DNA of 55,042 nt from an uncultured Candidatus Saccharibacteria bacterium (GTDB lineage: Bacteria; Patescibacteriota; Minisyncoccia; Phycocordibacterales; CAIZIN01). Positions 728 to 53,851 of the stretch are shown in pieces. How positions within the stretch are numbered: the stretch's first letter is position 1; each line of letters opens with the position of its first letter. The notes beneath the pieces were generated by a model. It ran no database searches. It saw only the letters and a list, made by a program, of their open reading frames with translations, and was not told where the DNA came from. A program made the position numbers and the translations under genes. The stretch spans positions 11,119 to 66,160 of the forward strand of contig CAYYLG010000001.1 of the NCBI GenBank assembly GCA_964472605.1, given 5' to 3'.

Positions 728-1334
728 GGGGCCGACCGGTTTCGACGGGGGCAACAGAGATTGGAACTGCAAGCGGAGCATGTCGCATCATCTCCTAAAA
801 CTGTGTGGCAACCAATTAAACGGCGCTGACACTTCTCTCGCTGTTGCTGCCTAATTAGGCGGCTTGGGTTCTAGCCGACCTCGAAACAGAATGGCTAGTG
901 ACTGATGGAAAGTCATCGGACTGAGGGAAAGACCTCTGACGCCCTGGAAAGACTGGTGGTGGATCGGGAGAGGTCACACTCTCTGCCCTTGACGGTGGGA
1001 AAGACCACAACCTTGTTAGTGGGTTAAACTAACTAAGCTTGTAGGGGTTCTAATCAACGGGTTCTCGGACAGGGGTTCAATTGTAATGGTTGCTTTACTT
1101 CGAAAGAAGTATTGAAAAACTGGGTGAATTCAGGGAAAGCTAAGTTCTTTTAAGAATATGCCAATCCTGAGCCAAGCTATCAGTACACTGGTAGAAGGTG
1201 CAGAGACTACTGGAGAGATTAAGTCCTCTTAATAACCAGCTAGAGCGCCCAGCGTCCTAACGTAAAGACGAGGATGAAGAGATAGTCCAAGCCAAATTGA
1301 AAAATTTGGATAACTTGTCCCCTCGGCTCCACCA
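728..1334 (+). ncRNA. ssrA: tmRNA (transfer-messenger RNA), intron-interrupted
   Basis: The 5' end is GGGGCCGACCGGTTTCGACGGGGG. Acceptor 728-734 pairs with 1324-1330, including G3:U70, and CCA is encoded at 1332-1334. The tag reading frame 807-854 gives GNQLNGADTSLAVAA followed by TAA. The T stem AGGGG 1071-1075 / CCCCT 1319-1323 is split by 236 nt. Confidence 0.85.
1082..1317 (+). mobile_element. group I intron (ORF-less) in the tmRNA T-loop
   Basis: Removing it restores the 7-nt T-loop TTCAATT. The 5' exon ends in U (CAAT can pair with GTTG 1089-1092, with a U.G wobble at the splice site). The last intron nucleotide is G1317. There are two GAAA-capped hairpins (1096-1111, 1292-1309). P7-like strands are present: CAGAGACTA 1201-1209 and GATAGTCC 1281-1288. 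A CAGGGAAAG element is also present. Confidence 0.7.
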
Positions 1335-7009: not shown

Positions 7010-7216
7010 ATGAAAGAAAAAACAGCAGGGCAAAAGGCAGCAGAAACAAGACGTAAAAACATTGAAGCCATGACACCAGCACAAAGAGCAGAAGTTACTC
7101 GCAAGCGTCGTGAAGCAGCCAAGAAAGCAGTTGAAACAAAGAAACAAAATGAATTGAAAGCAAAACGTTCTGAAGCAGCCAAGAAAGCTTGGGAAACTAG
7201 AAGAGCAAATGCTTGA
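7010..7216 (+). CDS. small highly basic protein with repeated EAAKKA(V/W)ET(K/R) motif
   Basis: AAGGAAACC lies upstream of the ATG. The 68-aa ORF is locally GC-richer than its neighbours. Confidence 0.6.
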   Translation: MKEKTAGQKAAETRRKNIEAMTPAQRAEVTRKRREAAKKAVETKKQNELKAKRSEAAKKAWETRRANA

Positions 7217-7225: not shown

Positions 7226-7375
7226 GGGAGTGATCCACTATTGGTATCGTGGTTGTCGCCAAAAAACGGCACGGTAGGGTAGCAGAAACGAATGATATAC
7301 TAGTCCATTTCATTTGAATCTGTCCGAAATGGGGGACAAGCCTGTTCCTTGTGGGTTCAATTCCCACCACTTCCA
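7226..7375 (+). tRNA. aberrant 150-nt tRNA-like gene (acceptor, D and T arms canonical; anticodon domain unresolved)
   Basis: The acceptor GGGAGTG / CACTTCC has G3:U70 and discriminator A, with no encoded CCA. The D arm is CCAC-TATTGGTATC-GTGG. The T arm is GTGGG-TTCAATT-CCCAC. About 95 nt lie between them and contain hairpins TGTCG/CGGCA (8-nt loop CCAAAAAA), CCATTTC/GAAATGG (14-nt loop) and GGGGACA/TGTTCCT. Confidence 0.5.
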
Positions 7376-7391
7376 ATTTAAAAGATTAAAA

Positions 7392-7691
7392 ATGAAATAT
7401 ACATTAGAAGAAATAAAAAAACTCATAAAAGAATGTGAGCAAAGGGCTGAAAATAAAGAAAAACCTGTTCTTGATTGGGTTGATTATGAAGATCAATATG
7501 ATCACACTCTTGTTGATGGAGGTTGGACAGCAGCAGGTGCTATAGTTGGATATCCTGTAGATCAAACTACATTTTGTTCTGTTCACTATCTTCCTTATGA
7601 AGAGTATTGTATTTCAACAAGAGGAACAATTGCTGCAATGTTACTTGCTGAAGCTTTAATCAAAAGAGAAACTAAAAAATTATTTGAGTAA
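7392..7691 (+). CDS. hypothetical protein (99 aa)
   Basis: ATG 7392 lies just after the tRNA-like gene. The upstream part of the track ORF overlaps that RNA. Confidence 0.6.
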   Translation: MKYTLEEIKKLIKECEQRAENKEKPVLDWVDYEDQYDHTLVDGGWTAAGAIVGYPVDQTTFCSVHYLPYEEYCISTRGTIAAMLLAEALIKRETKKLFE

Positions 7692-14143: not shown

Positions 14144-14861
14144 ATGAAAAAGAACAAAGATAAATCCTGGAGGTGTCTTTGACACCATTCAAATTTTGAT
14201 CCAACCCGGAGAGGGTGGAAAAGATTCTCAGTTATTTGCTGAAGATCTTTCTAGCATGTATCAAAAACATGCAAAGAGACATGGGCATGAAGCTCGAATA
14301 GTCTCTAGTACGACCAAACAAATTCAATTAGAGGTCGTTGGTAAAAATCCTTGAAGAGCATTCCGGTTTGAAGCCGGACTTCATAGAGTACAAAGAGTTC
14401 CTCCAACTGAAAAGGGTGGTAGAACTCATACTTCTATTATAACCGTAATTGTTCTTAAACAAAAAGAACAAAAGCCAATTGAAATTGATAAAAAAAATGT
14501 CGTAGTAAGTTACTACAAAGATTCCGGCGCTGGTGGCCAGCATAGAAATAAAACAATGTCTGGTGTTCGGTTACAATATTCAGGTATAACTATTGAATGT
14601 TGTGATACAAGAGATCAGAGAAAAAATAAAGAAATAGCCTTCGAGCGTTTGGAAGAAAAACTTAAGCAAAGGGAGCTTGGAATTGAAAGAGAAAAAAAAG
14701 AAAGAGAAATGTCCAAGCAAAATCCCAATTGTGGTAAGCGTGGAAATTTCTTAAGGAACTACAACTACATGAGAGATGAAGTTTCACAAGACGGTAACAA
14801 ATATAAGCTCTCTCAATTTTTGAGAGGAAATCTGGAGAAGCTTTATGGTGAAGCCGTCTAA
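14144..14861 (+). CDS. class-I peptide chain release factor, N-terminally truncated; needs a +1 frameshift at 14177-14183 and decoding/readthrough of in-frame TGA 14352-14354
   Basis: Assembled as join(14144..14179,14181..14861). Motifs: QPGEGGKDSQLFAEDL, GLHRVQRVPPTEKGGRTHTS (RF1-type PxT), SGAGGQHRNKT (GGQ), RDQRKNKE, RNYNY. AAGGAG lies upstream of the ATG. Confidence 0.75.
14169..14183 (+). promoter_or_regulatory. prfB-type programmed +1 frameshift cassette
   Basis: GGAGG-TGT-CTT-TGA-C has the same architecture as the E. coli prfB site AGGGGG-TAT-CTT-TGA-C: an internal SD, a 3-nt spacer, then CUU UGA C. Confidence 0.75.
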
Positions 14862-16281: not shown

Positions 16282-17874
16282 ATGATAAAAGGAAAATCTA
16301 GTTTAGATGGAACTCCAATTGAAAAACTGTCTGATTATAGTAGAAAAAAAATAATAAAAATTTGTGATGATTGTAAAATAGAACTACAAATTTCTTATTG
16401 TGATTTAATTTTATCAAGAAAAAAAAGAAAAAGTGATATTGATAGATGTCATAAATGTGCAATGAAAAATCAAAGTGGAGAAAACAATCCTTCTAAAAAA
16501 CAAAATACTAGAAAAAAAATTAGTGAAAAATTAAAAGGTAAAAGTAAAAGATTTAAAAAAGGTTTTAATCCAAGAATACATACAATCAGAATAAACACAG
16601 CAGGTTATGTACTTGTTCATGATTATAAAAATAACAAAAAAGAATTCGAGCACAAATTAATTATGGAAAAAAATATAAAAAGAAAACTAAAAGGGAAAGA
16701 ACAAATCCATCACATTGATGGTGATAAAAAAAATAATAATATAGAAAACTTACTTTTAGTTAATGATGCTTCAGAGCATATGAAAGTTCATTCTCAAATA
16801 GAAAATTTATTTTTTGAATTATATAAAAAAAATATTGTTTATTTTGATAATGAAAACAAATCGTATAAATTAAATCCTCTTATAGAATTGAGTAGGTTTG
16901 AAGAAAGTCTTGGATTTGAAAATATAGCAATAAAACAAAAAAAGCAAATATGTGTTTCAAGATTAGATGTAAATTTGAAAAGTGAAGTAATAAGGGATGT
17001 CTTTTTAGATGTTCCTATGATGGCTGCAAACATGAGTACGGTAACAAATGCTGAATTCATTATTAAGCTTTCAAAATTAGGTGCAATGGGTGTAATGCAT
17101 CGTGCATGTTCTGATGAAGAAATTTTATCTTCTATAGAAAAAATTTCAAAAGAATGTGAATGGGTTGCAGGCTCTATTGGTGTATCAAACAAAGATATTG
17201 ATTTATTTAAAAATATGATTATTAATGGTTGTAATATCATATTTATAGACATTGCACATGGTTATAGTGAAGCTGTTTTTGATATGGCTAAAAAAATAAA
17301 AAAGTATTCTCCCTTAACCAAAGTTGTTGTTGGAAATACAACAAATATAAATATGCTTTATGAATGTTATGAATTTATTGATGCGATAAAAGTTGGTATA
17401 GCTCAAGGTTTTGCTTGTGAAACAAAAAATACTGCTGGTTGTACTGAAAAACAATTTTCTGCTATTTATAAATTTAAAGAAGTTTCTAAAAAACTAGAAG
17501 TTCCAATTATTTCTGATGGAGGAATCAGAGAACCTTCGGATTTCGTTAAAGCTATTGGGGCTGGAGCGAATTCTATCATGGCGGGAAAAATATTTGCAGA
17601 ATGTCCTGAGAGTGCAGCAGAACTTGGAACAGACAAAAATAATAATCCAATAAAAATTTATGCAGGAATGGCATCACAATATATTCAAGAAGCTTGGAAA
17701 GGCGGTGTTAAAGAAGGAACTTGTACTGAAGGTGGTGTTCGGTATTTGTCACTTGGGTTGCCAATTAATAAAATGCTTGAAAAATACTCTGGTGCATTGA
17801 GATCTGGGATAACTTATGCAGGAGCAAAAGATATTAAATCTTATCAAAATAATGTTGAATTTATTAAAATATAA
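16282..17874 (+). CDS. guaC: fusion protein: N-terminal HNH endonuclease domain + GMP reductase/IMPDH-family TIM barrel
   Basis: Residues ~1-190 carry CxxC...CxxC and HHIDGDKKNNNIENLLLVNDASEHMKVH. Residues ~200-530 are collinear with GuaC from its N-terminus (LGFENIAIK, VPMMAANM, IDIAHGYS, VVGN, catalytic-Cys loop GIAQGFACETK, ISDGGIR, IMAG). Confidence 0.75.
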   Translation: MIKGKSSLDGTPIEKLSDYSRKKIIKICDDCKIELQISYCDLILSRKKRKSDIDRCHKCAMKNQSGENNPSKKQNTRKKISEKLKGKSKRFKKGFNPRIHTIRINTAGYVLVHDYKNNKKEFEHKLIMEKNIKRKLKGKEQIHHIDGDKKNNNIENLLLVNDASEHMKVHSQIENLFFELYKKNIVYFDNENKSYKLNPLIELSRFEESLGFENIAIKQKKQICVSRLDVNLKSEVIRDVFLDVPMMAANMSTVTNAEFIIKLSKLGAMGVMHRACSDEEILSSIEKISKECEWVAGSIGVSNKDIDLFKNMIINGCNIIFIDIAHGYSEAVFDMAKKIKKYSPLTKVVVGNTTNINMLYECYEFIDAIKVGIAQGFACETKNTAGCTEKQFSAIYKFKEVSKKLEVPIISDGGIREPSDFVKAIGAGANSIMAGKIFAECPESAAELGTDKNNNPIKIYAGMASQYIQEAWKGGVKEGTCTEGGVRYLSLGLPINKMLEKYSGALRSGITYAGAKDIKSYQNNVEFIKI

Positions 17875-19416: not shown

Positions 19417-20187
19417 ATGGATAAGACAACTTTGGGCGATAGAATGAAAAGATATGAGCAAAGTTCTCGTTTCGTTTTAACGAGAAGAATGCCCGTTATT
19501 ATTCGTATTGATGGAAATGCTTTTCATACATATACTAAAGGTTTCAGTCGTCCTTTTGATGATATTATCATTAAGTCAATGGTTGAAGCCGCAAAACAAG
19601 TTTCATTAAAAGTTCAAGGTTTTAAGGCTGCTTATATTCAGTCAGATGAAGCTTCTTTTCTTCTAACTGACTATGACAACATTGATACTGAAGCTTGGTT
19701 TGATTATAATGTTTCTAAAGTTGTTTCAATTTCTGCATCTATTATGACTGCTTATTTTAATGAAACAATTAAAAATAATTTGCAGTCTTATTTTTCTAAT
19801 CATCCTAAATCGAATGATAAAGAATATGAAGAAGTAAAGTCCTATTTTAATAGAAATGCTGGTAAAATAGCATTTTTTGATTCTCGTGTATTTAATATTC
19901 CAAAGGAAGATGTTATTAATTACTTCAAATGGCGTCAGATTGACTGGTTTAGAAATTCTTTATCAATGTATTGTGGAAGTTTTTATTCCAGTAAACAAAT
20001 GCATGGTAAAAATAGGGATGATCAGCATGAAATGTTATATGAAAAAGGTAAAAATTGGACTACGGATTTAGATAGTCAAAAGAAAAACGGAACTTTTTTA
20101 TATAAAAAAGATAGAGAGTTGATCCAAGATTCAGACTACATTGTTGAATTTGATAGTTTTTATGAAAAATTTGAAGGAATAAATTAG
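19417..20187 (+). CDS. Thg1-like protein (tRNA-His guanylyltransferase / 3'-5' polymerase family)
   Basis: Motifs GDRMKRYE, PVIIRIDGNAFHTY and AYIQSDEASFLL. The 256-aa length is full-length for the family. Confidence 0.75.
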   Translation: MDKTTLGDRMKRYEQSSRFVLTRRMPVIIRIDGNAFHTYTKGFSRPFDDIIIKSMVEAAKQVSLKVQGFKAAYIQSDEASFLLTDYDNIDTEAWFDYNVSKVVSISASIMTAYFNETIKNNLQSYFSNHPKSNDKEYEEVKSYFNRNAGKIAFFDSRVFNIPKEDVINYFKWRQIDWFRNSLSMYCGSFYSSKQMHGKNRDDQHEMLYEKGKNWTTDLDSQKKNGTFLYKKDRELIQDSDYIVEFDSFYEKFEGIN

Positions 20188-20192
20188 ACATT

Positions 20193-20237
20193 CTTAGAAT
20201 CTCCAAAGTACAATAGTATTACTTTGGAGGTTCTAAG
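20193..20237 (+). promoter_or_regulatory. RBS-sequestering hairpin upstream of the LAGLIDADG gene
   Basis: CTTAGAATCTCCAAAGT (20193-20209) pairs with ACTTTGGAGGTTCTAAG (20221-20237) over 17 positions with one non-Watson-Crick pair. The 3' arm contains the GGAGG SD and abuts ATG 20238. Confidence 0.6.
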
Positions 20238-21026
20238 ATGAATAAAGATGAAATAAATAAAACGATAGAACTTTATAGTTCTGGTATTGGAACAAACGAA
20301 ATTGCAGAAATATTAGGTTTTCATAGGTCTAGTATTCAATATAACTTAAAAAAACAAGGAATTAAACTAAGGCATAGAAGTCCTGGCAACAAATATAATG
20401 TATTTTATTTTGATAATTACACAGAAGAAAATTGTTATTGGGCAGGATTTATTTATGCTGATGGGAACGTTAGAAAAGATGGTTGCTCAGTAAATATTCA
20501 TCTTTCTTCTGTTGATTTAGAGGCTTTAGAATTTATAGCAAAAGCAACAAAATATAATGGAAATATAGAAAAATGTAAAGATGGTTCTGTCAGAATTTAC
20601 TTTACAGGTAAGTGGTTTCCGAATGCTTTAAAAGAAAATTATGGAATTGGTCCAAATAAATCTAAAGATGGTAGAATTCCAAAAAATTTAGACAAGAAGA
20701 GTTTTAAACATTTCATAAGAGGTCTTTTTGATGGAGATGGTTGCATTACTATTTCAACAGTTCCTACAATAAATTTTACTTTGAATAAAGAAGATTGTTA
20801 CTATCTTTCCAAGTATTTTTATAATAATTTAGATGTTAAATTAAAGCAAAAACATAAATATGCTAAAATAATGGACAAAGGTTCCTATGGTCAGATTCAT
20901 TACAGTGGAAAAAATGCTAAAAAAATATTAGATTGGATGTATTCTGAATCAACAGAAGAAACAAGGCTTAGAAGAAAATATGAATTATACAAAAAGTTAT
21001 GGTTGCAGAGATTGGGCGAGAAATAG
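20238..21026 (+). CDS. LAGLIDADG homing endonuclease with N-terminal HTH
   Basis: Two LAGLIDADG motifs, WAGFIYADGNV and IRGLFDGDGCI. N-terminal HTH GTNEIAEILGFHRSSIQYNLKK. Confidence 0.85.
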   Translation: MNKDEINKTIELYSSGIGTNEIAEILGFHRSSIQYNLKKQGIKLRHRSPGNKYNVFYFDNYTEENCYWAGFIYADGNVRKDGCSVNIHLSSVDLEALEFIAKATKYNGNIEKCKDGSVRIYFTGKWFPNALKENYGIGPNKSKDGRIPKNLDKKSFKHFIRGLFDGDGCITISTVPTINFTLNKEDCYYLSKYFYNNLDVKLKQKHKYAKIMDKGSYGQIHYSGKNAKKILDWMYSESTEETRLRRKYELYKKLWLQRLGEK

Positions 21027-21282
21027 TGTTCAAATGTATTCGAGGGCTTTCTTTTCACAGAAACAATTGCATGGAAAGAAAGTTCCAGATATGCACGAAT
21101 TGCTTTATGGTATTGGAAAAAATTGGGCAACCGATTTGTCTGATCAAAAAAAGAATGGAACTTTCATCATTGGAGATGAAATTAATTGTTCGGTATTACC
21201 GAACTATCAATCAATCTCAGAAGTAATTGATCCCTTGCTGAGGGGAAAAGAGAAAGAAGATGTTACTACAGAAACTTTATGA
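20980..21282 (+). pseudogene. displaced duplicate 3' segment of the Thg1-like gene
   Basis: DWARNSVQMYSRAFFSQKQLHGKKVPDMHELLYGIGKNWATDLSDQKKNGTF parallels residues ~175-230 of ORF 19417 (DWFRNSLSMYCGSFYSSKQMHGKNRDDQHEMLYEKGKNWTTDLDSQKKNGTF). It is in the same reading phase and diverged at the nucleotide level. Confidence 0.7.
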
Positions 21283-46996: not shown

Positions 46997-47344
46997 ATGC
47001 ATTCTTTTGATTTTCCAAATCCTAAAAATCATGCTTTCTTCTACTTTGAAGAAATACCAATATACTATGATGAATATCAAGATGATGAGCCTGATGATCC
47101 TTTGGATTTTTTAGTTCATGAAATATTTGATTATAAGTTTTCCATTAGAAAATATGAACAGAAATTATTTTTAGATGATTCTATGGTTAATGGAAAATTA
47201 GTAGAATACTTTGATTGGGCAAGAGAAAAATATCAAGAAATAGTAGATTCAAAACAATATAGTTATGCTCTACATGCAGCAGAACTATTGTTTGACTATA
47301 TCCCAAGTAGTTTTTGGCTTAAAGAAATTGATAAATATAAGTAA
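46997..47344 (+). CDS. WxFP-family member
   Basis: GGGAGAAG lies upstream of the ATG. N-terminus MHSFDFPNPKNH. Confidence 0.65.
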   Translation: MHSFDFPNPKNHAFFYFEEIPIYYDEYQDDEPDDPLDFLVHEIFDYKFSIRKYEQKLFLDDSMVNGKLVEYFDWAREKYQEIVDSKQYSYALHAAELLFDYIPSSFWLKEIDKYK

Positions 47345-47597
47345 ACAATTTGATTTTCCTGATCCTGAAGCTTTAGAAGTAGAAGCTGATGGCGAAATAA
47401 AAAGGGTTTTTGAAGATGGTAGTATTGTTTGGACAAAAGATGGACATAGACATCGAGGATTTGATTTGCCCGCATTTATTTCAAGTGATGGAAGTAAATA
47501 TTGGTATAAAAATGGATGTATAAGTAGAGATTGTGGACCGGCTGTTATTCTTTTTACTGGAGAACAAATTTTTTATAAAAACGGAAAGATAATATAA
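47328..47597 (+). CDS. WxFP-family member with NG..HR..GPA (MORN-like) repeats
   Basis: KQFDFPDPEAL. There is no nearby ATG, so a TTG 47328 start is assumed. Contains WTKDGHRHRG...WYKNGCISRDCGPA...FYKNGKI. Confidence 0.45.
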   Translation: MINISKQFDFPDPEALEVEADGEIKRVFEDGSIVWTKDGHRHRGFDLPAFISSDGSKYWYKNGCISRDCGPAVILFTGEQIFYKNGKII

Positions 47598-47752
47598 TGA
47601 TTATAAAAGAAGAAGATTTAATTTCATATTTTAAATATCCCGAAAATTGCAATAGTAATCTGTTCATTAAGATTTCTAATTTATCACAAAAGGATAGAGA
47701 AAAGTTGCAAAGTTATTGGAATAATTTATGGGGAAATTTTTTTAATGTCTGA
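47597..47752 (+). CDS. small ORF, weak family member (51 aa)
   Basis: TAATG overlap with the upstream gene. Contains SYFKYPENCN. Below the track length cutoff. Confidence 0.4.
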   Translation: MIIKEEDLISYFKYPENCNSNLFIKISNLSQKDREKLQSYWNNLWGNFFNV

Positions 47753-48020
47753 GAATATAAATAATTTTGAATTCCCCAATAGAGCTAATTTTACTACTGA
47801 TATTGATGAGATTGATGTTATGAAATTAATGAATGCTTGGCGAAGAGGAGAAGTCCCAACAGAAACCGTTAAGCTTTGGATTGGTGTATCAAATGAAGAA
47901 GAGTCCAGGCAACTTGAAAGAGAAATAGAAGATGATTATAATCAAGGTTTAATTATTAATTATAGATTAAAAGAAAATTCTCATAGAGATATAAATCTTA
48001 GGTTTTTAGAAGATGAATAA
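47745..48020 (+). CDS. WxFP-family member (subfamily B)
   Basis: NNFEFPNRANF. Confidence 0.6.
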   Translation: MSENINNFEFPNRANFTTDIDEIDVMKLMNAWRRGEVPTETVKLWIGVSNEEESRQLEREIEDDYNQGLIINYRLKENSHRDINLRFLEDE

Positions 48021-48468
48021 GTTTGAATTTCCAAATATATATAATTTTCTTCCTGAAGAATTTGGTTTTCTTAACTATAGATTTATGCTTTCTGAAAATC
48101 TAGAAACAAATGAAGAAAAGATAAATAGGATTAGAGAAATTTTAGATAGACATTGTTTGGATTTAAGGAGAGTACTTAAAGAACATATAAATCTTAATCT
48201 TGAAGAAAAGATACAATGGATTGAAGAAGCATATTATACTGCCGAGATAGGTTATCTTTTAAGCGGAGATCCAAAATATTATAAAAAATCAAAATACTTT
48301 GAGTTACTACTTAAAGTATATAAAAATCCAGAAATGAAAAAAATGGAATTAAGAACAAGGCTAGAAGCTAAAAGACAAAAATCTATTGACAGAAAAACAG
48401 TTCAACAAATTATATCTAATGGGGATAGTTATTTATTAAATGATAATGAACGAATGGGATTTTCCTGA
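48013..48468 (+). CDS. WxFP-family member (subfamily A)
   Basis: MNKFEFPNIYNF. Confidence 0.6.
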   Translation: MNKFEFPNIYNFLPEEFGFLNYRFMLSENLETNEEKINRIREILDRHCLDLRRVLKEHINLNLEEKIQWIEEAYYTAEIGYLLSGDPKYYKKSKYFELLLKVYKNPEMKKMELRTRLEAKRQKSIDRKTVQQIISNGDSYLLNDNERMGFS

Positions 48469-48709
48469 TGCAGAAAATTATTTACATAAAGTTGAACATT
48501 TGATGGGCACTCAATACCAAGACTCAGATTGGATTGAGGGAGTTAGAATTGTTCTAAATAGAAATAAAAAACATAAATCAAAAGAAGAACATCAAGAGTT
48601 TGTTAAAAAAGTACTTATTATAGTTAATAAAGCATATGATAATACAGGAGCAAAAAGATATAGAGATTTTATTAGAGAAATAGAAAATGCATATAATATC
48701 AAAGTTTAA
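48440..48709 (+). CDS. WxFP-family member (subfamily A)
   Basis: MIMNEWDFPDAENY and an internal AYDNTG motif. Confidence 0.6.
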   Translation: MIMNEWDFPDAENYLHKVEHLMGTQYQDSDWIEGVRIVLNRNKKHKSKEEHQEFVKKVLIIVNKAYDNTGAKRYRDFIREIENAYNIKV

Positions 48710-48989
48710 CTTTCCAGATCCACATGACTTTTTACCTGATCATCTTTTTATAAAAGATAAAGATGATATTTTAGTTTCACCATTTGAAGAAAGATGGTGT
48801 AATGTTATGAACTGGGCATTAAAAGTAGAGCCTAAAACCGAAATAAAATATAAATACATAAAAATTCTAAAAGAAGCTTTTGAAATCACAGAATGTGATC
48901 ATATAAGAAATTTCTTATTAAGAAGAGATATAGAATTGCTTGTAGGTAGATTTAAATATTTTGAAGAGTATGGCCCTTATGTTAGATAA
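48687..48989 (+). CDS. WxFP-family member (subfamily A)
   Basis: SKFNFPDPHDF. Confidence 0.6.
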   Translation: MHIISKFNFPDPHDFLPDHLFIKDKDDILVSPFEERWCNVMNWALKVEPKTEIKYKYIKILKEAFEITECDHIRNFLLRRDIELLVGRFKYFEEYGPYVR

Positions 48990-49254
48990 AATAAAAATAG
49001 ATGAGAGCCTTCGATTTCCTGATCCAAAAAACTTTCATTTGGAAGCTTCTACATTTGGGGGTGTAAATTATTTGAATCCAAAATGGGCGGACAAAGCTTT
49101 TCAGTATTTCAAAGAATCTCTCCCAAAAACAAATATGGCTATACTTTTAAAAAGTAATATTTTGAGAGAACTTACTATAGCATATGACAATACTGGTGAT
49201 TTAAAATTAAAAAAAATAATAAAAGAAGTTGAAAATACCAGTGTAGTAATTTAA
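48979..49254 (+). CDS. WxFP-family member (subfamily A)
   Basis: ESLRFPDPKNF and AYDNTG. The start is uncertain; the ORF opens at 48961. Confidence 0.5.
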   Translation: MLDKIKIDESLRFPDPKNFHLEASTFGGVNYLNPKWADKAFQYFKESLPKTNMAILLKSNILRELTIAYDNTGDLKLKKIIKEVENTSVVI

Positions 49255-49264
49255 GGAAAGCAAA

Positions 49265-49858
49265 ATGAAAAACAAATCAAAAAATCTTCTGATTCTAGAA
49301 AATGGTTTTGAAATTCCATATTTCAAAAATCATTATACTTACCCAGCAACAAAGGGTAATAATTGTGAAAAATATATTAAAGAAATATCTAACTTTTCAA
49401 ATGATAGTTTAGAAAAACTTACAAAAGAAAATGTAGAGGAAGCTCAAGAAATAATTACTAAAGCAGAAGAAGCTTTACAAAATTGGAAAGAATTCGAAGA
49501 CTTTGAAAGTAATGAAATTATAGAAGTTAGAGATCTGGAAAAAGAACTTGAAAAATTAGAACATATGACTGTCTTTGATTTACATTTTCAATTATCAAGA
49601 AGCTATAAACAAGTTAGTCGTGTTTTCGATTTGTTTGATGATTTGTTTATAGTGTGCCATACTCATAAAGAATTATTAGATTGTTTTAAAAAAATAGAAA
49701 ATCTTTATAAAGTTTTAAATCAAAAATTAGAAAATGGTTTGGGTAAAAATGTAGGAAATTTAATCGTAAAAAGAAAAGAGGACACAGTTAGAAATACAGG
49801 AGAAACTAATGAATGTACAGGACAATCAACGAGTGTGGGAGAATATCAAACCACATAG
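49265..49858 (+). CDS. WxFP-family member (longer, 197 aa)
   Basis: NGFEIPYFKNH. AAGGAAAG lies upstream of the ATG. Confidence 0.6.
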   Translation: MKNKSKNLLILENGFEIPYFKNHYTYPATKGNNCEKYIKEISNFSNDSLEKLTKENVEEAQEIITKAEEALQNWKEFEDFESNEIIEVRDLEKELEKLEHMTVFDLHFQLSRSYKQVSRVFDLFDDLFIVCHTHKELLDCFKKIENLYKVLNQKLENGLGKNVGNLIVKRKEDTVRNTGETNECTGQSTSVGEYQTT

Positions 49859-49862
49859 AATT

Positions 49863-50156
49863 ATGCTAAACCATTGCTGGGATACTCCAGACCCCTATAA
49901 TTTTTTAGATTCTGAATGGATGTTTAATAGTACAATTGGCATAGATGTTAATGGAGAAAATTTTCATATTCCACTTTATACAACAGAATCACAGACAACA
50001 ACGCCTTCAAGGTGGACAAATGAACCAGTATGGCTAGAAGAAAGACCAGAAATATTATTACCAAGATTTGATTTTGGCCCTTACAATATAAGGGTAAGTA
50101 GTCCTGTAATTGATACAAGATTGACATATGGGATTATAACTTCTGTAGAGGCATAA
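49863..50156 (+). CDS. WxFP-family member
   Basis: MLNHCWDTPDPYNF. ATG 49863 was chosen because it does not overlap the upstream gene. Confidence 0.55.
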   Translation: MLNHCWDTPDPYNFLDSEWMFNSTIGIDVNGENFHIPLYTTESQTTTPSRWTNEPVWLEERPEILLPRFDFGPYNIRVSSPVIDTRLTYGIITSVEA

Positions 50157-50158
50157 AC

Positions 50159-50488
50159 ATGGAATGGGATTTTCCAAATTATGAAAATTATCTGTATCCT
50201 GTTGAATATTGTATATTTAAAACAACTTTGTTTGCAAATACAAGAGAACTAATATTTGATACAGATCATTTTACTAATACAGAAATGTGGATTAAAAGAG
50301 TTAGAATTATGCTACATCAAGATAACTCACACTTGAAGGGCTTTGATAAATTAAAAAGAATTGAAGAACTTAAAAAAATAAAGACAGACTGTACAAATGC
50401 TTTTGAAAACACAAATAATATTAAAATAAAACCTCTTTTAGCAGAGATAGACAGTCAAATGGAAATACTTTATAAGAGCGATAAATGA
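50159..50488 (+). CDS. WxFP-family member (subfamily A)
   Basis: MEWDFPNYENY and an AFENTN motif. Confidence 0.65.
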   Translation: MEWDFPNYENYLYPVEYCIFKTTLFANTRELIFDTDHFTNTEMWIKRVRIMLHQDNSHLKGFDKLKRIEELKKIKTDCTNAFENTNNIKIKPLLAEIDSQMEILYKSDK

Positions 50489-50703
50489 TGATTATATCAA
50501 TAGATAATTGGGCATACCCTTTTTTTAATAATTTTTGTGATTTAAAAGACATTAATTTAAATGAGGATATGTTTAATTTTATAGGAGAAAATTTAGTTTT
50601 AGTTAATAGCAAATACTGGCAAACACCAACAGAAGGAACTGAAGAGTGGAAAATTTTAAATGAATATTTTACGGAAAGAAATATTAGTTACATTTACGTC
50701 TGA
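50485..50703 (+). CDS. WxFP-family member
   Basis: IDNWAYPFFNNF, close to the partial last member IDNWTYPNFNNY. Confidence 0.55.
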   Translation: MMIISIDNWAYPFFNNFCDLKDINLNEDMFNFIGENLVLVNSKYWQTPTEGTEEWKILNEYFTERNISYIYV

Positions 50704-50878
50704 ATGGGAATATCCTAATTATAGGAATTTTCAAGAAAAAAAGTTAGGGATTGTTCCTTTAATTGAGATTGGAGAAGTAAATCTTCAGCCTTTACAAGCA
50801 AGTGCTATGAATTTAGTTAATTATTTGAGGTCAAGACATGGAATGGGAAATACCGAAGAAACAGAATCATTTACCTAA
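50660..50878 (+). CDS. WxFP-family member
   Basis: TSEWEYPNYRNF. The only ATG gives a 44-nt overlap with the upstream gene. Confidence 0.5.
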   Translation: MNILRKEILVTFTSEWEYPNYRNFQEKKLGIVPLIEIGEVNLQPLQASAMNLVNYLRSRHGMGNTEETESFT

Positions 50879-51464
50879 AGTTGAGCACGAACAGACTCTT
50901 ATTGACAATCCCGAATTGTGGGCCAAATCAATGAGAGATACTATTTTCGATATTAGACATGATTTTAAAAGACCAAAAGAAGATGAAAAGATTAATTGGA
51001 TTGCAACAAATATAAAAACAATTGTTGGAATACTTAATAGAATTAAACATGAATGTCAGAAAGCGTATGATGCTATTGGATACAAAGACATTCTTGAAAT
51101 CATAAAAGAATTAGACGAATTCCTAAAGAATCCACAAAACTTCCCTCTCGCAAATACAAATAAAAATAAAATGTATATTCCTGCATTTGAATATGGACTT
51201 TTAGGCCCGAATAATGAAAGAAAAAAGGGTGTAAAAATCCATATAAATGGTCCGTATTCTCAATCTATGGCCGATTTTATTGAAAATATCAGAAGCAACC
51301 CCGATTATTGGTGTGAATTCCATAACCTGGGATTTACTACATTAAAAAATAATGAAAATTATTATGCTTTTTATGACTGGATGCCACGAAAAGAATCAAT
51401 ACCAGCAAGAGAAATGCGAGAAAGAATAGAAGATTTACAGCGCAGAACAAATGGTGAAATTTAA
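50838..51464 (+). CDS. WxFP-family member (208 aa, subfamily A)
   Basis: MEWEIPKKQNH and an AYDAIG motif. Confidence 0.6.
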   Translation: MEWEIPKKQNHLPKVEHEQTLIDNPELWAKSMRDTIFDIRHDFKRPKEDEKINWIATNIKTIVGILNRIKHECQKAYDAIGYKDILEIIKELDEFLKNPQNFPLANTNKNKMYIPAFEYGLLGPNNERKKGVKIHINGPYSQSMADFIENIRSNPDYWCEFHNLGFTTLKNNENYYAFYDWMPRKESIPAREMRERIEDLQRRTNGEI

Positions 51465-51733
51465 TGGATAAAGAAACTAAAATTATATATAGCTTTGGAT
51501 TAATGATTTATCTTGAAGATATTCAAGATCCAATTTCTTTATCAGGACGAGTAAGCATAGATGAACATCTTAGTAATAGTGATAGAATTACTGATATAGA
51601 TAAATTTTATTCAAAGACATATACTGTTGGAGATATTGTAATTGTAGAAAATGCAAATGAAGTTAATAAATATTTTGCTCCAAGTCCCCTGTATATGATA
51701 AATAAATACCTTCATCAAGATGAAGACAACTAA
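51464..51733 (+). CDS. hypothetical small protein (no family motif)
   Basis: TAATG overlap with the upstream gene; 89 aa. Confidence 0.5.
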   Translation: MDKETKIIYSFGLMIYLEDIQDPISLSGRVSIDEHLSNSDRITDIDKFYSKTYTVGDIVIVENANEVNKYFAPSPLYMINKYLHQDEDN

Positions 51734-51953
51734 TTGGGATATCCCAGATAAAAAGAACTACTTTGAGTTCTTTAAAGAAGATAATATAGAATTACTTAAA
51801 AAATGGCGCAAGAAAGAAATTAGTTTAGAAAATTATCTTGACAGTATTCCAAAAGAATATTCCGAAGCTTTGATTAAATACTGTGAAGAAGAAAGAATTA
51901 ATTTAGTATTATACCTAGAGTCAGTATGCTGGGCACTATTTGAAGAAAATTAA
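51720..51953 (+). CDS. WxFP-family member (subfamily B)
   Basis: MKTTNWDIPDKKNYF and LENYLDSIPKE. Confidence 0.6.
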   Translation: MKTTNWDIPDKKNYFEFFKEDNIELLKKWRKKEISLENYLDSIPKEYSEALIKYCEEERINLVLYLESVCWALFEEN

Positions 51954-51964
51954 GGATAAATAAA

Positions 51965-52228
51965 ATGAAAATGTATATCATTGTAGATAATATTACCGGA
52001 CAAGCACTATCCAAATACTCTCCTCATTCAGAAGACCTCTGGGAATGGGATGGAGAATATATTGATGACTTTGGTGAGTATATGACTAATGTCGAAATTT
52101 TCGGCGCAGAAGAGGCAGATAAAGCAATTGAACACCTAATACAAGTCTTCGATCAAACAGATGGTCAAGATACCGACTTTGAGAAAGTAGAAGTTGAAAA
52201 AGCTAAAGTTTATAAATTGGCAGAATAA
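51965..52228 (+). CDS. acidic hypothetical small protein (no family motif)
   Basis: AAGGA lies upstream of the ATG; 87 aa. Confidence 0.5.
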   Translation: MKMYIIVDNITGQALSKYSPHSEDLWEWDGEYIDDFGEYMTNVEIFGAEEADKAIEHLIQVFDQTDGQDTDFEKVEVEKAKVYKLAE

Positions 52229-52458
52229 TGGAATTCGATTTCCCTAAACCAGAAAACCATACAGAATTCTTTCTTTTTAAAAGAAAGCATCACCCAATTC
52301 AATGTTATGAATTGGTTCTACATTCAAAGAAAGATTTAGAAGAATTGATACAAAAAGCTAAATTAAATAGTGAATGGTATGCGTATGTAGATACCCATGA
52401 AGAAATGATAAATTTTTTTGCAAAAGAAGTATGGAGAAATAAATATGCCATTAACTGA
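52228..52458 (+). CDS. WxFP-family member
   Basis: MEFDFPKPENH. Confidence 0.6.
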   Translation: MEFDFPKPENHTEFFLFKRKHHPIQCYELVLHSKKDLEELIQKAKLNSEWYAYVDTHEEMINFFAKEVWRNKYAIN

Positions 52459-52651
52459 AAAGGAAATAGAATTAACAGAAACACTCGGTAGTGTTTGGAA
52501 TGAGTTTCTTAAATTAGAACCAAAACATCCCCTAGATAATCATGAATTCGTTGATGCCATACACAAAGCACAACACCTAATCATGATTCGAGCGGCTAGA
52601 AGAGATCATCCAGATATCTTTTATACGGAAAAGAAAAATGAAAACAACTGA
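52445..52651 (+). CDS. hypothetical small protein (no family motif)
   Basis: GGAG lies upstream of ATG 52445. Confidence 0.45.
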   Translation: MPLTEKEIELTETLGSVWNEFLKLEPKHPLDNHEFVDAIHKAQHLIMIRAARRDHPDIFYTEKKNENN

Positions 52652-53075
52652 TTGGGACTTTCCAAACCCAAATCTACTAAGATCAACCAAAGTACCAAAG
52701 TTCTTTGATACCATACACACAGAACAACCAGAGAAATGGGCCTACCAATTTAAAGGTAGGCTCTATTTTAGTAGAGATACAGAAGCCACACTCTTTACAA
52801 GATTTGATGGCGAAAACTTCAGAGAAGAACAAGAAACTCAATTCAAATTCTATGGAGAAGTCCTCCTAGATCAACTACAAGAAGCCTATAATGATACCGG
52901 CTCGCTCGCAATTAAAAAAGTTATGCAAGATAAGTATTTTTTAGAATTTCTAGAAAAATTAAAAGATGAAAATACTAGAAACAAATTAGCAAAAAAAGCG
53001 CAAGAAGAACAAGAGAATAGGTTCTACTCACCAATAAACAAACCAATTGATTGGCAAATACCAAACGAGGAATAA
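52638..53075 (+). CDS. WxFP-family member (subfamily A); second motif copy at its C-terminus
   Basis: MKTTDWDFPNPN, an AYNDTG motif, and a C-terminal IDWQIPNEE. Confidence 0.6.
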   Translation: MKTTDWDFPNPNLLRSTKVPKFFDTIHTEQPEKWAYQFKGRLYFSRDTEATLFTRFDGENFREEQETQFKFYGEVLLDQLQEAYNDTGSLAIKKVMQDKYFLEFLEKLKDENTRNKLAKKAQEEQENRFYSPINKPIDWQIPNEE

Positions 53076-53078
53076 ATT

Positions 53079-53679: not shown

Positions 53680-53851
53680 CTTCTTTAATCGAATTAAATA
53701 CAAAAAAGAAAATGTCTTGGGAATAGGGGATGGAAAACCTGTCTTCTTCGATCTCACACTTAGATATGATGAAAAAGTAGACGAATTCTATATGCATCAA
53801 ATTAGACACCTGGAAAATCAATTAGCTAAGGAATTTGAATACTATGATTAA
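53618..53851 (+). CDS. WxFP-family member
   Basis: EDQWEYPEPHNF. The only ATG gives a 62-nt overlap with the upstream gene. Confidence 0.5.
   Translation: MIDKISPIQFEDQWEYPEPHNFFNRIKYKKENVLGIGDGKPVFFDLTLRYDEKVDEFYMHQIRHLENQLAKEFEYYD

What the first reader, a model, noticed from the sequence alone, without database searches (positions are those of the whole stretch)
7226..7375. 150-nt tRNA-like gene with an alanine-type acceptor stem and a non-canonical anticodon domain
**Canonical parts**
- The 7-bp acceptor GGGAGTG/CACTTCC has G3:U70 and A73.
- D and T arms are normal.

**Non-canonical parts**
- About 95 nt lie between the D and T arms.
- They contain a hairpin with an 8-nt loop (CCAAAAAA), a 7-bp stem with a 14-nt loop containing TTTGAAT, and a type-II-like variable hairpin.
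- I could not derive a standard 5-bp stem with a 7-nt anticodon loop.
- No CCA is encoded, unlike the tmRNA and tRNA-Met in this window.

**Possible interpretations**
- A tRNA carrying a small intron or insertion.
- An expanded-loop (frameshift or nonsense suppressor) tRNA.
- A decoy or mimic for anticodon nucleases.
- A Y-RNA/tmRNA-like alanine-accepting regulatory RNA.

It sits in a genome that also carries a recoded release-factor gene and many RNA-repair genes.
Basis: seen in the sequence. Interest (0 to 1): 0.65.

Follow-up and report, generated by a model that had tools for sequence, protein, structure and literature searches.

The report
Phage tRNA-shaped RNA that cannot decode
A large uncultured phage carries a real 150-nt RNA gene with the alanine-type acceptor arm and T arm of a tRNA or tmRNA but three odd hairpins where the anticodon should be; it is a new variant of the little-understood tRNA-like RNAs of phages, and its function is still only inferred.

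Summary
Window 7226-7375 (+) encodes a tRNA-shaped RNA. It has a perfect 7-bp acceptor stem (G3:U70, A73), a canonical T arm (GUGGG-UUCAAUU-CCCAC), a 4-bp D arm with G18G19, and no encoded CCA. It fills a 175-nt gap between two ORFs and is 47% G+C against 27-31% in the flanks.

ARAGORN and the Rfam tRNA model do not call it. Only the tmRNA model touches it, at 18 bits and through its two ends.

The 98 nt between the D and T arms fold into three parts: a 5-bp hairpin with an 8-nt loop, a 12-bp hairpin at 7282-7323, and an 8-bp variable-arm-like hairpin.

No deletion gives a convincing tRNA, and there is no group I or BHB intron signal. tmRNA hallmarks (UCGAC, GGAC beside the T stem, P2 helix, proper tag) are absent.

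The same acceptor/T-arm signature occurs in 80 bacterial tmRNAs. In IMG/VR it also occurs in phage tRNA-Tyr and tRNA-Ala genes and in many short tmRNA-like RNAs.

No homolog of the whole element was found, because the phage is an orphan, so there is no covariation evidence.

Best reading: a non-decoding, probably alanine-chargeable tRNA/tmRNA mimic. It is a new variant of a known kind (T4 RNAC, DS6A-type domain-only tmRNA).

The parts
7226..7232 (+). Acceptor stem, 5' strand (GGGAGUG); the expected RNase P cleavage site lies 5' of G7226
   Evidence: 7/7 pairs with 7368-7374, including G3:U70. Pair probabilities are 0.99.
7235..7252 (+). D arm: stem CCAC/GUGG with a 10-nt loop UAUUGGUAUC (G18G19 present; U8, A14 and A21 absent)
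   Evidence: Read. p about 0.30, competing with a helix between 7245-7251 and 7270-7276 at p about 0.37.
7254..7271 (+). Hairpin A at the anticodon-arm position: 5-bp stem UGUCG/CGGCA with an 8-nt loop CCAAAAAA (no U33)
   Evidence: Read. p about 0.23. ARAGORN reads it as the anticodon 'aaaa' only in artificial deletion variants.
7278..7325 (+). Hairpin B: long hairpin with pairs GG/CC, GCAGA/UCUGU and CGAAUGA/UCAUUUG, a 2x2 AA/AA internal loop and a 14-nt apical loop. It contains a chance-level 11-codon frame, GCA...UGA, at 7282-7317.
Evidence: Pair probabilities are 0.85-1.0.
7331..7350 (+). Hairpin C: 8-bp variable-arm-like hairpin (GGGGGACA AGCC UGUUCCUU) abutting the T arm
   Evidence: Core pairs have p 0.98-0.99. 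It is present in both the MFE and the centroid structure.
7351..7367 (+). T arm: GUGGG UUCAAUU CCCAC
   Evidence: Canonical T loop. Matched by the Rfam tmRNA model. p 0.96-0.99. One of two exact motif hits in the window.
7368..7375 (+). Acceptor stem, 3' strand (CACUUCC) plus discriminator A7375. No CCA is encoded; AUUU follows.
   Evidence: Read. The 22-nt 3' signature is shared with 80 bacterial tmRNA genes, and with phage tRNA-Tyr and tRNA-Ala genes and short tmRNA-like RNAs.

Best explanation
This is a genuine gene for a 150-nt tRNA-shaped non-coding RNA. It is not a decoding tRNA and not a tmRNA.

**Shown**
- One half is a perfect acceptor/T-arm 'minihelix' of the alanine type (G3:U70, A73). 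The same kind is used by tmRNAs and by some phage tRNAs.
- The other half is a multi-helix junction. A D arm, a hairpin with an 8-nt A-rich loop, a long 12-bp hairpin and a variable-arm-like hairpin stand in place of a normal anticodon and variable region.
- The element sits 9 nt after one ORF and 16 nt before the next, in an all-plus-strand gene array.

**Inferred**
1. It is co-transcribed with its neighbours.
2. It is released like a tRNA: RNase P cuts at G7226 and an RNase Z-type enzyme cuts after A7375, because CCA is not encoded. The CCA-adding enzyme then adds CCA.
3. AlaRS can charge it, because G3:U70 in an acceptor helix is sufficient for that enzyme (established knowledge).
4. With no U-turn anticodon loop it cannot read codons. 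With no UCGAC/GGAC SmpB-binding motifs it is unlikely to act in trans-translation.
5. It most likely works as a molecular mimic. It would occupy or divert factors that recognise the acceptor/T-arm/elbow of tRNA-Ala or tmRNA: AlaRS, EF-Tu, processing and repair enzymes, or host tRNA-directed nucleases.

The surrounding phage region is devoted to keeping translation running: a tmRNA, an RF2-like factor, a Thg1-like enzyme, RlaP, an RNA ligase, an RNase T-like exonuclease and Nudix enzymes.

My confidence is about 0.6 that it is a functional, non-decoding tRNA/tmRNA-like RNA. It is only about 0.25 for the specific mimic or decoy role.
For: **Core anatomy and composition**
- Intact core helices and a canonical T loop.
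- G+C of 47% against 27-31% in the flanks, within an orphan AT-rich genome.
- MFE z-score of -2.1.

**Not a decoding tRNA**
- ARAGORN is negative with and without the intron option.
- No Rfam hit at gathering score.
- The only sub-threshold family hit is tmRNA, through the two ends: 18.2 bits, E = 2e-4 in a 5-kb search.
- No clean tRNA emerges from 864 deletion variants.

**The acceptor/T-arm signature elsewhere**
- GGTTCAATTCC-NNN-CACTTCCA gives 114 hits in GTDB genomes, of which 80 are full tmRNA genes with normal tags.
- In IMG/VR the same acceptor also closes at least 28 short non-canonical RNAs of 60-122 nt in the first 120 rows. Some of these score as tmRNA (52-71 bits) and others do not (27-38 bits).

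**Precedents**
- The DS6A tmRNA consists of the tRNA-like domain only, and a similar molecule inhibits tmRNA (PMC4131195, PMC11915505).
- T4 RNAC is 139 nt, has a T arm plus a terminal stem and two internal hairpins, and is expressed but of unknown function (PMC3014915, PMC9697503).

**Context**
- Pfam hits to Thg1, RNA_ligase, RlaP, RNase_T, NUDIX and RF-1.
- A canonical phage tmRNA once its intron is spliced out in silico.
Against: - No homolog of the whole element was found, so there is no covariation or conservation evidence. Every copy retrieved is identical. The neighbouring proteins have no relatives. IMG/VR, JGI metagenomes, GTDB genomes and INPHARED gave nothing related.
- Expression, processing and aminoacylation are untested.
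- Every canonical tRNA of this phage, and its tmRNA, encode CCA, while this element does not. This could mean it is never charged.
- The D stem is not favoured over an alternative helix.
- The interior resembles neither tRNAs (best 37 against shuffles 31.8 +/- 2.6) nor tmRNAs (24 against 26.5 +/- 2.8) significantly.
- The tmRNA-model hit arises only from the acceptor and T arm, which any alanine-type tRNA would also match.
Confidence: 0.55

Rival explanations
1. It is a cis-acting tRNA-like punctuation or regulatory element. The structure exists to be cut by RNase P and RNase Z, which separates or stabilises the flanking mRNAs. Alternatively it binds a tRNA-binding protein 16 nt upstream of the next start codon and so controls that gene. 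On this reading the excised RNA has no function in trans.
For: - It lies 9 nt after the stop of ORF 7010-7216 and 16 nt before the ATG at 7392, within a co-oriented gene array.
- No sigma-70-like promoter or terminator of its own was found around it.
- No CCA is encoded, unlike all the phage's true tRNAs.
- It is solitary, about 17 kb from the tRNA cluster.
Against: A processing signal needs only the acceptor/T-arm minihelix. The 98-nt, GC-enriched, well-paired interior and the G3:U70 pair would be unnecessary. No other such element lies between other genes of the 75 kb examined.
Confidence: 0.15
2. It is a decoding tRNA. Either a pre-tRNA whose insertion is removed by an unknown splicing route, or a tRNA with an expanded anticodon loop that reads a special codon (frameshift or stop suppression).
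For: - Hairpin A sits exactly where an anticodon arm should be: 1 nt after the D stem, with a 5-bp stem.
- ARAGORN at default threshold accepts a few deletion variants, namely Gln(CUG), Ser(UGA) and an 8-nt-loop 'aaaa' tRNA.
- The phage carries RNA ligase and other RNA-repair enzymes and an RF2-like gene with UGA recoding.
Against: - The accepted variants have mismatched stems, U at position 37, or break the D arm.
- The loop CCAAAAAA has no U33.
- No group I intron signal.
- The BHB-like motif is at chance level.
- The stable 12-bp hairpin B and hairpin C leave no canonical anticodon stem-loop.
- Bacteria have no known splicing route for an intron of about 60 nt (established knowledge).
Confidence: 0.07
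3. It is a minimal tmRNA. An alanine-charged tRNA-like part carries its own short message, GCA GAA ACG AAU GAU AUA CUA GUC CAU UUC AUU UGA (AETNDILVHFI), and adds an unusual tag to stalled proteins.
For: - The acceptor and T arm are of tmRNA type.
- An 11-codon open frame starts with GCA, and an A-rich stretch and UAG lie upstream.
- The phage invests in ribosome rescue: it has a tmRNA and an RF2-like gene.
Against: - 73 of 80 tmRNAs sharing the 3' signature have UCGA(C/U) in nt 8-28, and 74 of 80 have GGAC abutting the T stem. The element has neither.
- No P2 helix forms (p = 0.00).
- The frame starts at nt 57, against 83-95 in 80 tmRNAs, and ends in HFI rather than a hydrophobic (A/V)A end.
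- The frame lies entirely inside a 12-bp hairpin.
- An 11-codon open frame is expected by chance.
- The Rfam score is 18.2 against a gathering score of 47.
- The phage already has a canonical tmRNA with the tag GADTSLAVAA.
Confidence: 0.06
4. It is a decaying relic: a tRNA or tmRNA gene disrupted by insertions or rearrangement, or a recombination-site remnant, with no present function.
For: - The anticodon is destroyed or absent, CCA is missing, and the U8/A14/A21 set is missing.
- There is no detectable conservation, because no relatives exist.
- Fragments of tmRNA and tRNA 3' ends are common in phages as attachment sites (for example L005).
Against: - All 16 core base pairs, the T loop and G18G19 are intact.
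- The interior is strongly paired and 47% G+C in a 31% G+C genome, whereas decay would drift towards A+T and mismatches.
- Both acceptor strands are present, unlike an attachment-site fragment.
Confidence: 0.1

Closest known systems
Phage T4 RNAC (species 1 RNA, 139 nt; NC_000866 70908-71046)
   Same: - A phage-encoded stable RNA of similar size.
- Its ends form a terminal stem stacked on a canonical T arm (CCGGG UUCGAAU CCCGG).
- Its body is a long hairpin plus a shorter hairpin next to the T arm.
- It is expressed, but its function has been unknown for decades (PMC3014915, PMC9697503).
   Different: - No sequence similarity.
- RNAC has no D arm, no G3:U70 and an imperfect terminal stem.
- It lies inside the tRNA cluster.
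- Rfam gives it only a weak tRNA-Sec-like match, not tmRNA.
tmRNA forms consisting only of the tRNA-like domain, with no tag coding sequence (mycobacteriophage DS6A type; also found here in IMG/VR L265, L315, L280, L308 and GTDB L166, L212)
   Same: - Phage-borne and without a tag coding sequence.
- Alanine-type acceptor (often the very same GGGAGUG/CACUUCC, A73) and a T arm.
- Some also lack an encoded CCA.
- A similar molecule inhibits trans-translation, possibly by titrating SmpB (PMC4131195).
   Different: - Those are 60-125 nt and keep the GGNUUCGAC and GGA(C/U) motifs and a closed P2a helix.
- They score 52-71 bits with Rfam tmRNA.
- The element is 150 nt, has UAUCGUG and UUCCUU instead, has a D stem and three extra hairpins, and scores 18 bits.
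Canonical tmRNA (RF00023), including the phage's own intron-containing copy at 728-1334
   Same: - G3:U70 acceptor, A73 and the T loop UUCAAUU.
- The 3' 22-nt signature is found in 80 bacterial tmRNA genes.
   Different: No P2 helix, no pseudoknots, no credible tag frame, none of the tRNA-like-domain motifs, and less than half the length.
Class II (long variable arm) tRNAs of phages, for example tRNA-Tyr(GUA) in IMG/VR L309, and non-canonical tRNA-like genes L300 and L363
   Same: - Same acceptor family (GGAAGUG or GGGAGUG with CACUUCC, A73).
- A8 and a similar D arm in L309 (ACUCCAC UACUGGUUGU GUGGAG).
- A hairpin next to the T arm.
- L363 and L300 also have G3:U70 with oversized 'anticodon' loops that ARAGORN does not call.
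   Different: - Those are 76-95 nt.
- tRNA-Tyr has a normal CUGUAAA loop.
- The similarity of the interior to tRNAs is only about 2 sd above shuffles.
- The element carries about 55 extra nt (hairpin B).
Bacterial Y RNA YrlA (tRNA-like module tethered to Rsr/Ro60)
   Same: A non-coding RNA that mimics the tRNA D/T-arm elbow and is linked to RNA repair operons (own knowledge of Chen et al. 2014 and Wang et al. 2018; not re-read here).
   Different: - In YrlA the RNA ends form the Ro-binding stem and the acceptor-like stem is closed. Here the ends form the acceptor stem.
- No Rfam Y RNA hit.
- No TROVE/Rsr domain among the window ORFs scanned.

Membership tests
Canonical tRNA (RF00005) | 7-bp acceptor stem, 5-bp T stem with a GTPsiC-type 7-nt loop, D loop with G18G19 | tested here: met
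   Read. Pair probabilities. Motif.
Canonical tRNA (RF00005) | 5-bp anticodon stem with a 7-nt loop (Y32 U33 NNN R37) | tested here: not met
   - The only arm at that position has the 8-nt loop CCAAAAAA.
- ARAGORN is negative.
- Deletion scan.
Canonical tRNA (RF00005) | Conserved tertiary nucleotides U8, A14, A21 | tested here: not met
   The element has A8, U14 and C21.
Canonical tRNA (RF00005) | Detected by the tRNA covariance model or ARAGORN; length 70-95 nt | tested here: not met
   No tRNA hit is listed at E up to 10 in the region; three lower-scoring same-clan matches were suppressed and their identity is not shown. ARAGORN finds none. The length is 150 nt.
tmRNA (RF00023) | G3:U70 acceptor, A73, T arm | tested here: met
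   The signature is shared with 80 tmRNA genes.
tmRNA (RF00023) | Motifs of the tRNA-like domain: GGNUUCGAC after the acceptor, and GGAC abutting the T stem | tested here: not met
   73 of 80 and 74 of 80 comparison tmRNAs have them. The element has GGUAUCGUG and UUCCUU.
tmRNA (RF00023) | P2 helix between the 5' and 3' flanks of the body; pseudoknots | tested here: not met
   The candidate UUGUC/GACAA helix has p = 0.00. The body is only 98 nt.
tmRNA (RF00023) | Tag reading frame with a resume codon near nt 83-95 and a hydrophobic C-terminus | tested here: not met
   The only frame is at nt 57-92, gives AETNDILVHFI and lies inside a hairpin. Comparison tags.
tmRNA (RF00023) | Reaches the Rfam gathering score (47 bits) | tested here: not met
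   18.2 bits.
Domain-only (tag-less) tmRNA, DS6A type | About 60-125 nt; tRNA-like-domain motifs kept; P2a closed by a loop directly before the T arm | tested here: not met
   L265, L280 and L308 score 63.4, 52.5 and 70.6 bits. The element scores 18.2 bits, and 74 nt of extra hairpins lie between the possible P2a-like helix and the T arm.
Domain-only (tag-less) tmRNA, DS6A type | Binds SmpB and inhibits trans-translation | not testable with these tools
   This needs a binding assay or an in vivo assay.
tRNA interrupted by a group I intron | Group I catalytic core (over 200 nt) in the anticodon loop | tested here: not met
   The Rfam Intron_gpI model hits only 1068-1309, in the tmRNA. The insertion here is under 100 nt.
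tRNA with an archaeal-type (BHB) intron | Bulge-helix-bulge motif at the exon-intron junctions | tested here: not met
   One loose match, but 218 of 300 shuffles have at least one.
YrlA / bacterial Y RNA | RNA ends form the Ro(Rsr)-binding stem; tRNA-like module internal; rsr gene nearby | tested here: not met
   The ends form the acceptor stem. No Y RNA hit. No TROVE domain was found.
T4 RNAC-like phage stable RNA (a descriptive class, not a curated family) | Phage RNA of about 120-150 nt, with a terminal stem plus T arm and a body of hairpins | tested here: met
   Architecture comparison, against 49 and 50.
T4 RNAC-like phage stable RNA (a descriptive class, not a curated family) | Sequence homology to RNAC; location in the tRNA cluster | tested here: not met
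   No similarity in the blastn search of phage genomes. The element is about 17 kb from the tRNA cluster.

The most novel reading that the evidence does not exclude
The element is a new type of trans-acting translation-rescue or identity-switched RNA. It would be an alanine-charged tRNA body that carries its own RNA stand-in for the anticodon arm (hairpin A plus the D stem, where tmRNA uses SmpB) and a short internal message or effector domain (hairpin B). The phage would use it alongside its canonical tmRNA and RF2-like factor to handle stalled ribosomes, or to tag proteins with a non-degradative peptide. An equally unexcluded variant is that it founds an undescribed class of alanine-accepting tRNA mimics that phages use against tRNA-directed host defences.
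Probability: 0.06. Interest if true: 0.85.

Novelty: new variant of a known kind. Interest (0 to 1): 0.45.

Why it matters
Phages are known to carry tRNAs, tmRNAs and a few tRNA-like RNAs whose roles are unknown. T4 RNAC has been unexplained for about 50 years, and the DS6A domain-only tmRNA is another case.

This element adds an unusually large and elaborate example. It has an intact alanine identity set and sits in a phage region full of translation-rescue and RNA-repair genes.

The database scans made for it also showed a wider pattern. Short RNAs of 60-122 nt with the same alanine-type acceptor closing variable hairpin bodies are common in uncultured phage contigs. Many fall below the tmRNA gathering score.

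If these RNAs are charged and act as mimics or decoys, they would be a general phage tool for manipulating tRNA- and tmRNA-dependent processes or host tRNA-targeting defences.

As it stands, the element is a well-defined candidate for northern blotting, aminoacylation and binding assays. It is not a demonstrated new mechanism.

Tried and rejected
**tRNA and intron readings**
1. ARAGORN with default, intron and relaxed settings. It finds nothing at default. The relaxed calls ignore the real acceptor stem.
2. A scan of 864 single deletions for a hidden canonical tRNA. There were 10 weak calls and none was convincing.
3. BHB intron motif: at chance level.
4. Group I intron or small ribozymes in the insert: no Rfam hit at E up to 10.
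5. A 'UCA' or 'UGA' anticodon reading in UUUCAUU or UUUGAAU. Both need stems with mismatches, have U at position 37, and conflict with hairpin B (p about 1.0).

**Searches for homologs**
6. INPHARED blastn of 3 kb and of the element: only generic T-arm hits. The Lactococcus phage hit is a 3' tRNA fragment.
7. Neighbouring proteins. The helicase has relatives of at most 27% identity, and the downstream ORF has none.
8. All contigs carrying the locus are identical.
9. Exact or gapped patterns in IMG/VR: no relative of the whole element.
That scan was wasted.

**Other tests**
11. Paralogs in the window and in 20 kb of extra flank: none.
12. Ancestry from the interior sequence: tRNA similarity is about 2 sd above shuffles and tmRNA similarity is nil, so this is unresolved.
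13. Complementarity of the loops to other parts of the window: only chance 9-11-mers.
14. Pfam and PHROGs on neighbouring ORFs: nothing RNA-related next to the element.
15. A protein-coding reading. Gene callers extend the downstream ORF to ATG 7329, inside the element. I rejected this because the extension is made of hairpin C, the T arm and the acceptor strand, and has no better ribosome-binding site than ATG 7392.
Full report
**1. What is there**

The window is an all-plus-strand, 31% G+C segment of a large uncultured phage. Contigs reach up to 206,854 bp, and the window matches the last 55 kb of ena:ERZ27283041:k141_3575820.

The finding lies in the gap between ORF 7010-7216 (a 68-aa basic protein) and the ATG at 7392. 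Element position equals window coordinate minus 7225.

The sequence shows the following directly:
- A 7/7-paired acceptor stem, GGGAGUG/CACUUCC, with G3:U70 and discriminator A73 (7375).
- A possible eighth pair, U7225:A7375.
- A8 and U9.
- A D arm, CCAC-UAUUGGUAUC-GUGG.
- A T arm, GUGGG-UUCAAUU-CCCAC, with every canonical T-loop residue.
- No CCA; AAUUU follows.

By contrast, the phage's tmRNA, tRNA-Met and five further tRNAs just upstream of the window all encode CCA. Those five are Phe x2, Ala-UGC, Ala-GGC and Arg-UCU.

The exact T-loop motif GGTTCRANTCC occurs only twice in 55 kb: here and in tRNA-Met. The element is 47% G+C against 27-31% in its flanks. Its MFE z-score is -2.1.

**2. Secondary structure**

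In the Boltzmann ensemble:

| Feature | Window coordinates | Pair probability |
|---|---|---|
| Acceptor stem | 7226-7232 with 7368-7374 | 0.99 |
| T stem | within 7351-7367 | 0.96-0.99 |
| Long hairpin B (5 + 7 bp, AA/AA internal loop) | 7282-7323 | 0.85-1.0 |
| Hairpin C (8 bp, variable-arm-like, abuts the T arm) | 7331-7350 | up to 0.99 |
| D stem | 7235-7238 with 7249-7252 | about 0.30 |
| Hairpin A (8-nt loop CCAAAAAA) | 7254-7271 | about 0.23 |
| Alternative 7-bp helix | 7245-7251 with 7270-7276 | about 0.37 |

The D stem and hairpin A compete with the alternative 7-bp helix. A fold constrained to the cloverleaf core costs only 0.6 kcal/mol more than the MFE.

The molecule is best drawn as a multi-helix junction: acceptor, D arm, hairpin A, hairpin B, hairpin C and T arm.

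**3. It is not a decoding tRNA**

- ARAGORN finds nothing at default settings, with or without introns. Relaxed calls use spurious acceptor stems.
- Rfam at gathering score finds only the intron-containing tmRNA, its group I intron and tRNA-Met in the window.
- I deleted every internal segment that leaves 70-96 nt (864 variants). Only 10 are called. They have mismatched anticodon stems, U at position 37, a broken D arm, or the 8-nt 'aaaa' loop.
- No group I or ribozyme model matches the insert.
- A loose bulge-helix-bulge match is meaningless, because 218 of 300 shuffles have one.
- Hairpin A sits at the anticodon-arm position but has no U33.

**4. It is not a tmRNA either, although one half looks like one**

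The only family that touches the element is tmRNA RF00023: 18.2 bits against a gathering score of 47, E = 2e-4 in a 5-kb search. It aligns only the acceptor strands and the T arm.

Searching GTDB genomes for the 3' signature GGTTCAATTCC-NNN-CACTTCCA gave 114 hits.
- 80 of them are full-length tmRNA genes (300-432 nt) with ordinary tags.
- Most of the rest are truncated tmRNAs, attachment-site fragments or random coding matches.
- Only two or three are tRNA-like.
- Many of those tmRNAs begin GGGAGUGA(Y)(U)UGG(Y)UUCGAC.

In those same 80 tmRNAs the hallmarks of the tRNA-like domain are nearly universal:
- UCGA(C/U) in nt 8-28 in 73 of 80.
- GGAC abutting the T stem in 74 of 80.

The element has UAUCGUG and UUCCUU instead. 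A P2-type helix (UUGUC/GACAA) has probability 0.00.

The one open frame, GCA...UGA at nt 57-92 (AETNDILVHFI), is not a credible tag:
- It starts far from the nt 83-95 seen in the 80 tmRNAs.
- It ends unlike their tags.
- It lies wholly inside hairpin B.
- Its length is expected by chance.

The phage's own tmRNA, once its T-loop group I intron (1082-1317) is removed in silico, is a canonical 371-nt tmRNA. It has GGUUUCGAC, UCGGAC and the tag GADTSLAVAA.

**5. The signature is not exclusive to tmRNA in phages**

In IMG/VR the relaxed pattern GGTTCRANTCC-NNN-CACTTCCA was capped at 120 rows. It returned:
- 16 tmRNAs.
- 46 ordinary tRNAs, including 22 tRNA-Tyr(GUA) and 11 tRNA-Ala(UGC).
- Several permuted tmRNAs.
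- At least 28 short non-canonical RNAs of 60-122 nt closed by the same acceptor.

Among the short RNAs:
- Domain-only forms with UUCGAC and a closed P2a score as tmRNA: L265 at 63 bits, L280 at 52 bits, and L308 (122 nt) at 71 bits.
- A frequent family has conserved ends, GGGAGUGAUAAGGUAAG ... AACGGCGG-UUCGAYU-CCGCC-CACUUCC-A, and a hypervariable 30-70-nt hairpin body. It is 73-116 nt long and scores 38 bits.
- tRNA-like genes with a normal D arm but an oversized 'anticodon' loop also occur (L300 at 27 bits, and L363).

One phage tRNA-Tyr (L309) has a D arm much like the element's. However, the element's interior is only about 2 sd more similar to 869 tRNAs than shuffled versions are. It is not similar at all to tmRNA 5' regions.

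Ancestry from a tmRNA tRNA-like domain or from a class II tRNA is therefore unresolved. What is clear is the class. Phages carry many small RNAs that keep an alanine-type acceptor/T-arm minihelix and replace the rest. This 150-nt element is the largest and most tRNA-like body I saw. No 130-160-nt relative exists in IMG/VR.

**6. No homologs, hence no covariation**

- All contigs carrying the locus are identical over the element.
- The adjacent helicase has no relative above 27% identity among 5.8 billion proteins, and the downstream ORF has none at all.
- INPHARED has no related phage.
- Thg1-like proteins match at no more than 48% in unrelated phages.
- Exact 18-21-mers of the D arm, hairpin A and the T-arm/acceptor find only random coding hits.
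- My single JGI metagenome scan used a pattern that was too loose and was wasted on random hits.
- No paralog exists in the window or in 20 kb of additional flank.

**7. Context**

The region encodes:
- The intron-containing tmRNA.
- A short RF2-like gene with the classical CUU-UGA-C +1 frameshift site (14177-14183), a further in-frame UGA (14352-14354) and a GGQ motif.
- A Thg1-like enzyme, an RlaP-family nucleotidyltransferase, an RNA ligase, an RNase T-like exonuclease and two Nudix proteins.

The immediate neighbours of the element are uninformative. No promoter or terminator of its own was detected.

**8. Mechanism (inferred)**

1. The element is transcribed within the operon.
2. RNase P cuts at its 5' end. 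Because CCA is missing, an RNase Z-type cut follows the discriminator, and CCA is then added.
3. G3:U70 with A73 in a 7-bp helix is sufficient for AlaRS (established knowledge), so charging with alanine is plausible.
4. Without a U-turn anticodon loop it cannot decode. Without the tRNA-like-domain motifs it is unlikely to bind SmpB.
5. I therefore favour a mimic or decoy role for factors that read the acceptor/T-arm/elbow.

The precedents are the DS6A domain-only tmRNA, where a similar molecule inhibits tmRNA (PMC4131195, PMC11915505), and T4 RNAC, which has a similar architecture and is expressed but of unknown function (PMC3014915, PMC9697503).

The main rival is a purely cis-acting processing or regulatory structure. 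A decoding tRNA, a mini-tmRNA and a relic are less likely, for the reasons given above.

**9. Verdict**

- Novelty: a new variant of a known kind.
- Interest is moderate. The element is well defined, unusual and testable, but there is no conservation or expression evidence and no demonstrated function.

Noticed in passing
window 728-1334: The phage tmRNA gene is interrupted in its T loop by a 236-nt group I intron (1082-1317; Rfam 109 bits). Spliced in silico, it is a canonical 371-nt tmRNA with the tag GADTSLAVAA and an encoded CCA. ARAGORN misses it unspliced. An HNH/endonuclease VII-like ORF follows at 1399-1911.
   Followed up: yes
window 14145-14861: A short RF2-like gene carries the classical prfB +1 frameshift site CTT-TGA-C (14177-14183, with GGAGG upstream). 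In the shifted frame there is a second, in-frame TGA (14352-14354) upstream of the HRV...GGQ (14532-14540) region. TGA is a normal stop in 17 of 56 window ORFs. Double UGA-dependent control of a phage release factor may hint at a host with unusual UGA decoding.
   Followed up: partly
IMG/VR loci L248, L256, L259, L274, L277, L302, L320, L337, L344, L345, L355, L359, L367-L372: A frequent family of 73-116-nt phage RNAs. The ends are conserved (GGGAGTGATAAGGTAAG ... AACGGCGGTTCGAYTCCGCCCACTTCCACTAA; G3:U70, no CCA) and the central hairpin is hypervariable. It scores below the Rfam tmRNA gathering score (38 bits for L277) and ARAGORN does not call it. It may be an undescribed family related to the tmRNA tRNA-like domain, comparable to T4 RNAC.
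   Followed up: partly
IMG/VR L308 1727-1851; L300 4672-4766 (-); L363: L308 is a 122-nt 'mini-tmRNA' with the tRNA-like-domain motifs and a P2 helix but no stop-terminated tag frame (70.6 bits). L300 and L363 are tRNA-like genes with G3:U70, a normal D arm and oversized (10-13-nt) 'anticodon' loops, which ARAGORN does not call.
   Followed up: partly
L006 1-800 and 4901-4977 (10 kb upstream of the window start, same contig): A tRNA cluster (Phe-GAA x2, Ala-UGC, Ala-GGC, Arg-UCU), all with encoded CCA. A G+C-rich spacer of about 290 nt (L006 400-690) between the two tRNA-Ala genes has no ORF and no Rfam hit. It may be another structured RNA.
   Followed up: no
window 19417-21282: The Thg1-like ORF (19417-20187) is followed by a LAGLIDADG homing-endonuclease ORF (20238-21026) and a 100-aa ORF (20980-21282). 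The Thg1-like gene may be split by an intron or other mobile insertion.
   Followed up: no
window 16282-17874: An IMP dehydrogenase/GMP reductase-like ORF carries an HNH_3 endonuclease motif in its N-terminal 200 residues. This may be a fused or inserted homing endonuclease.
   Followed up: no
window 46997-54901 (continuing in L009): A tandem array of about 25 small paralogous ORFs (70-200 aa) share an N-terminal motif like W(D/E)FP(N/D)P.N(F/Y). There are no Pfam hits.
   Followed up: no
window 7010-7216: The 68-aa ORF just upstream of the element is very basic. It is built of three repeats of the type AAKKA(V/W)ETRR-N. This motif is recurrent in phage proteins of unknown function (weak PHROG 12127 hit). 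It could be a nucleic-acid binder.
   Followed up: partly
window 7329-7691: Public gene calls extend the downstream ORF to ATG 7329, inside the RNA element (a 120-aa product). The extra 21 codons are hairpin C, the T arm and the acceptor strand, so this is probably an annotation artefact. ATG 7392 gives a 99-aa protein.
   Followed up: partly
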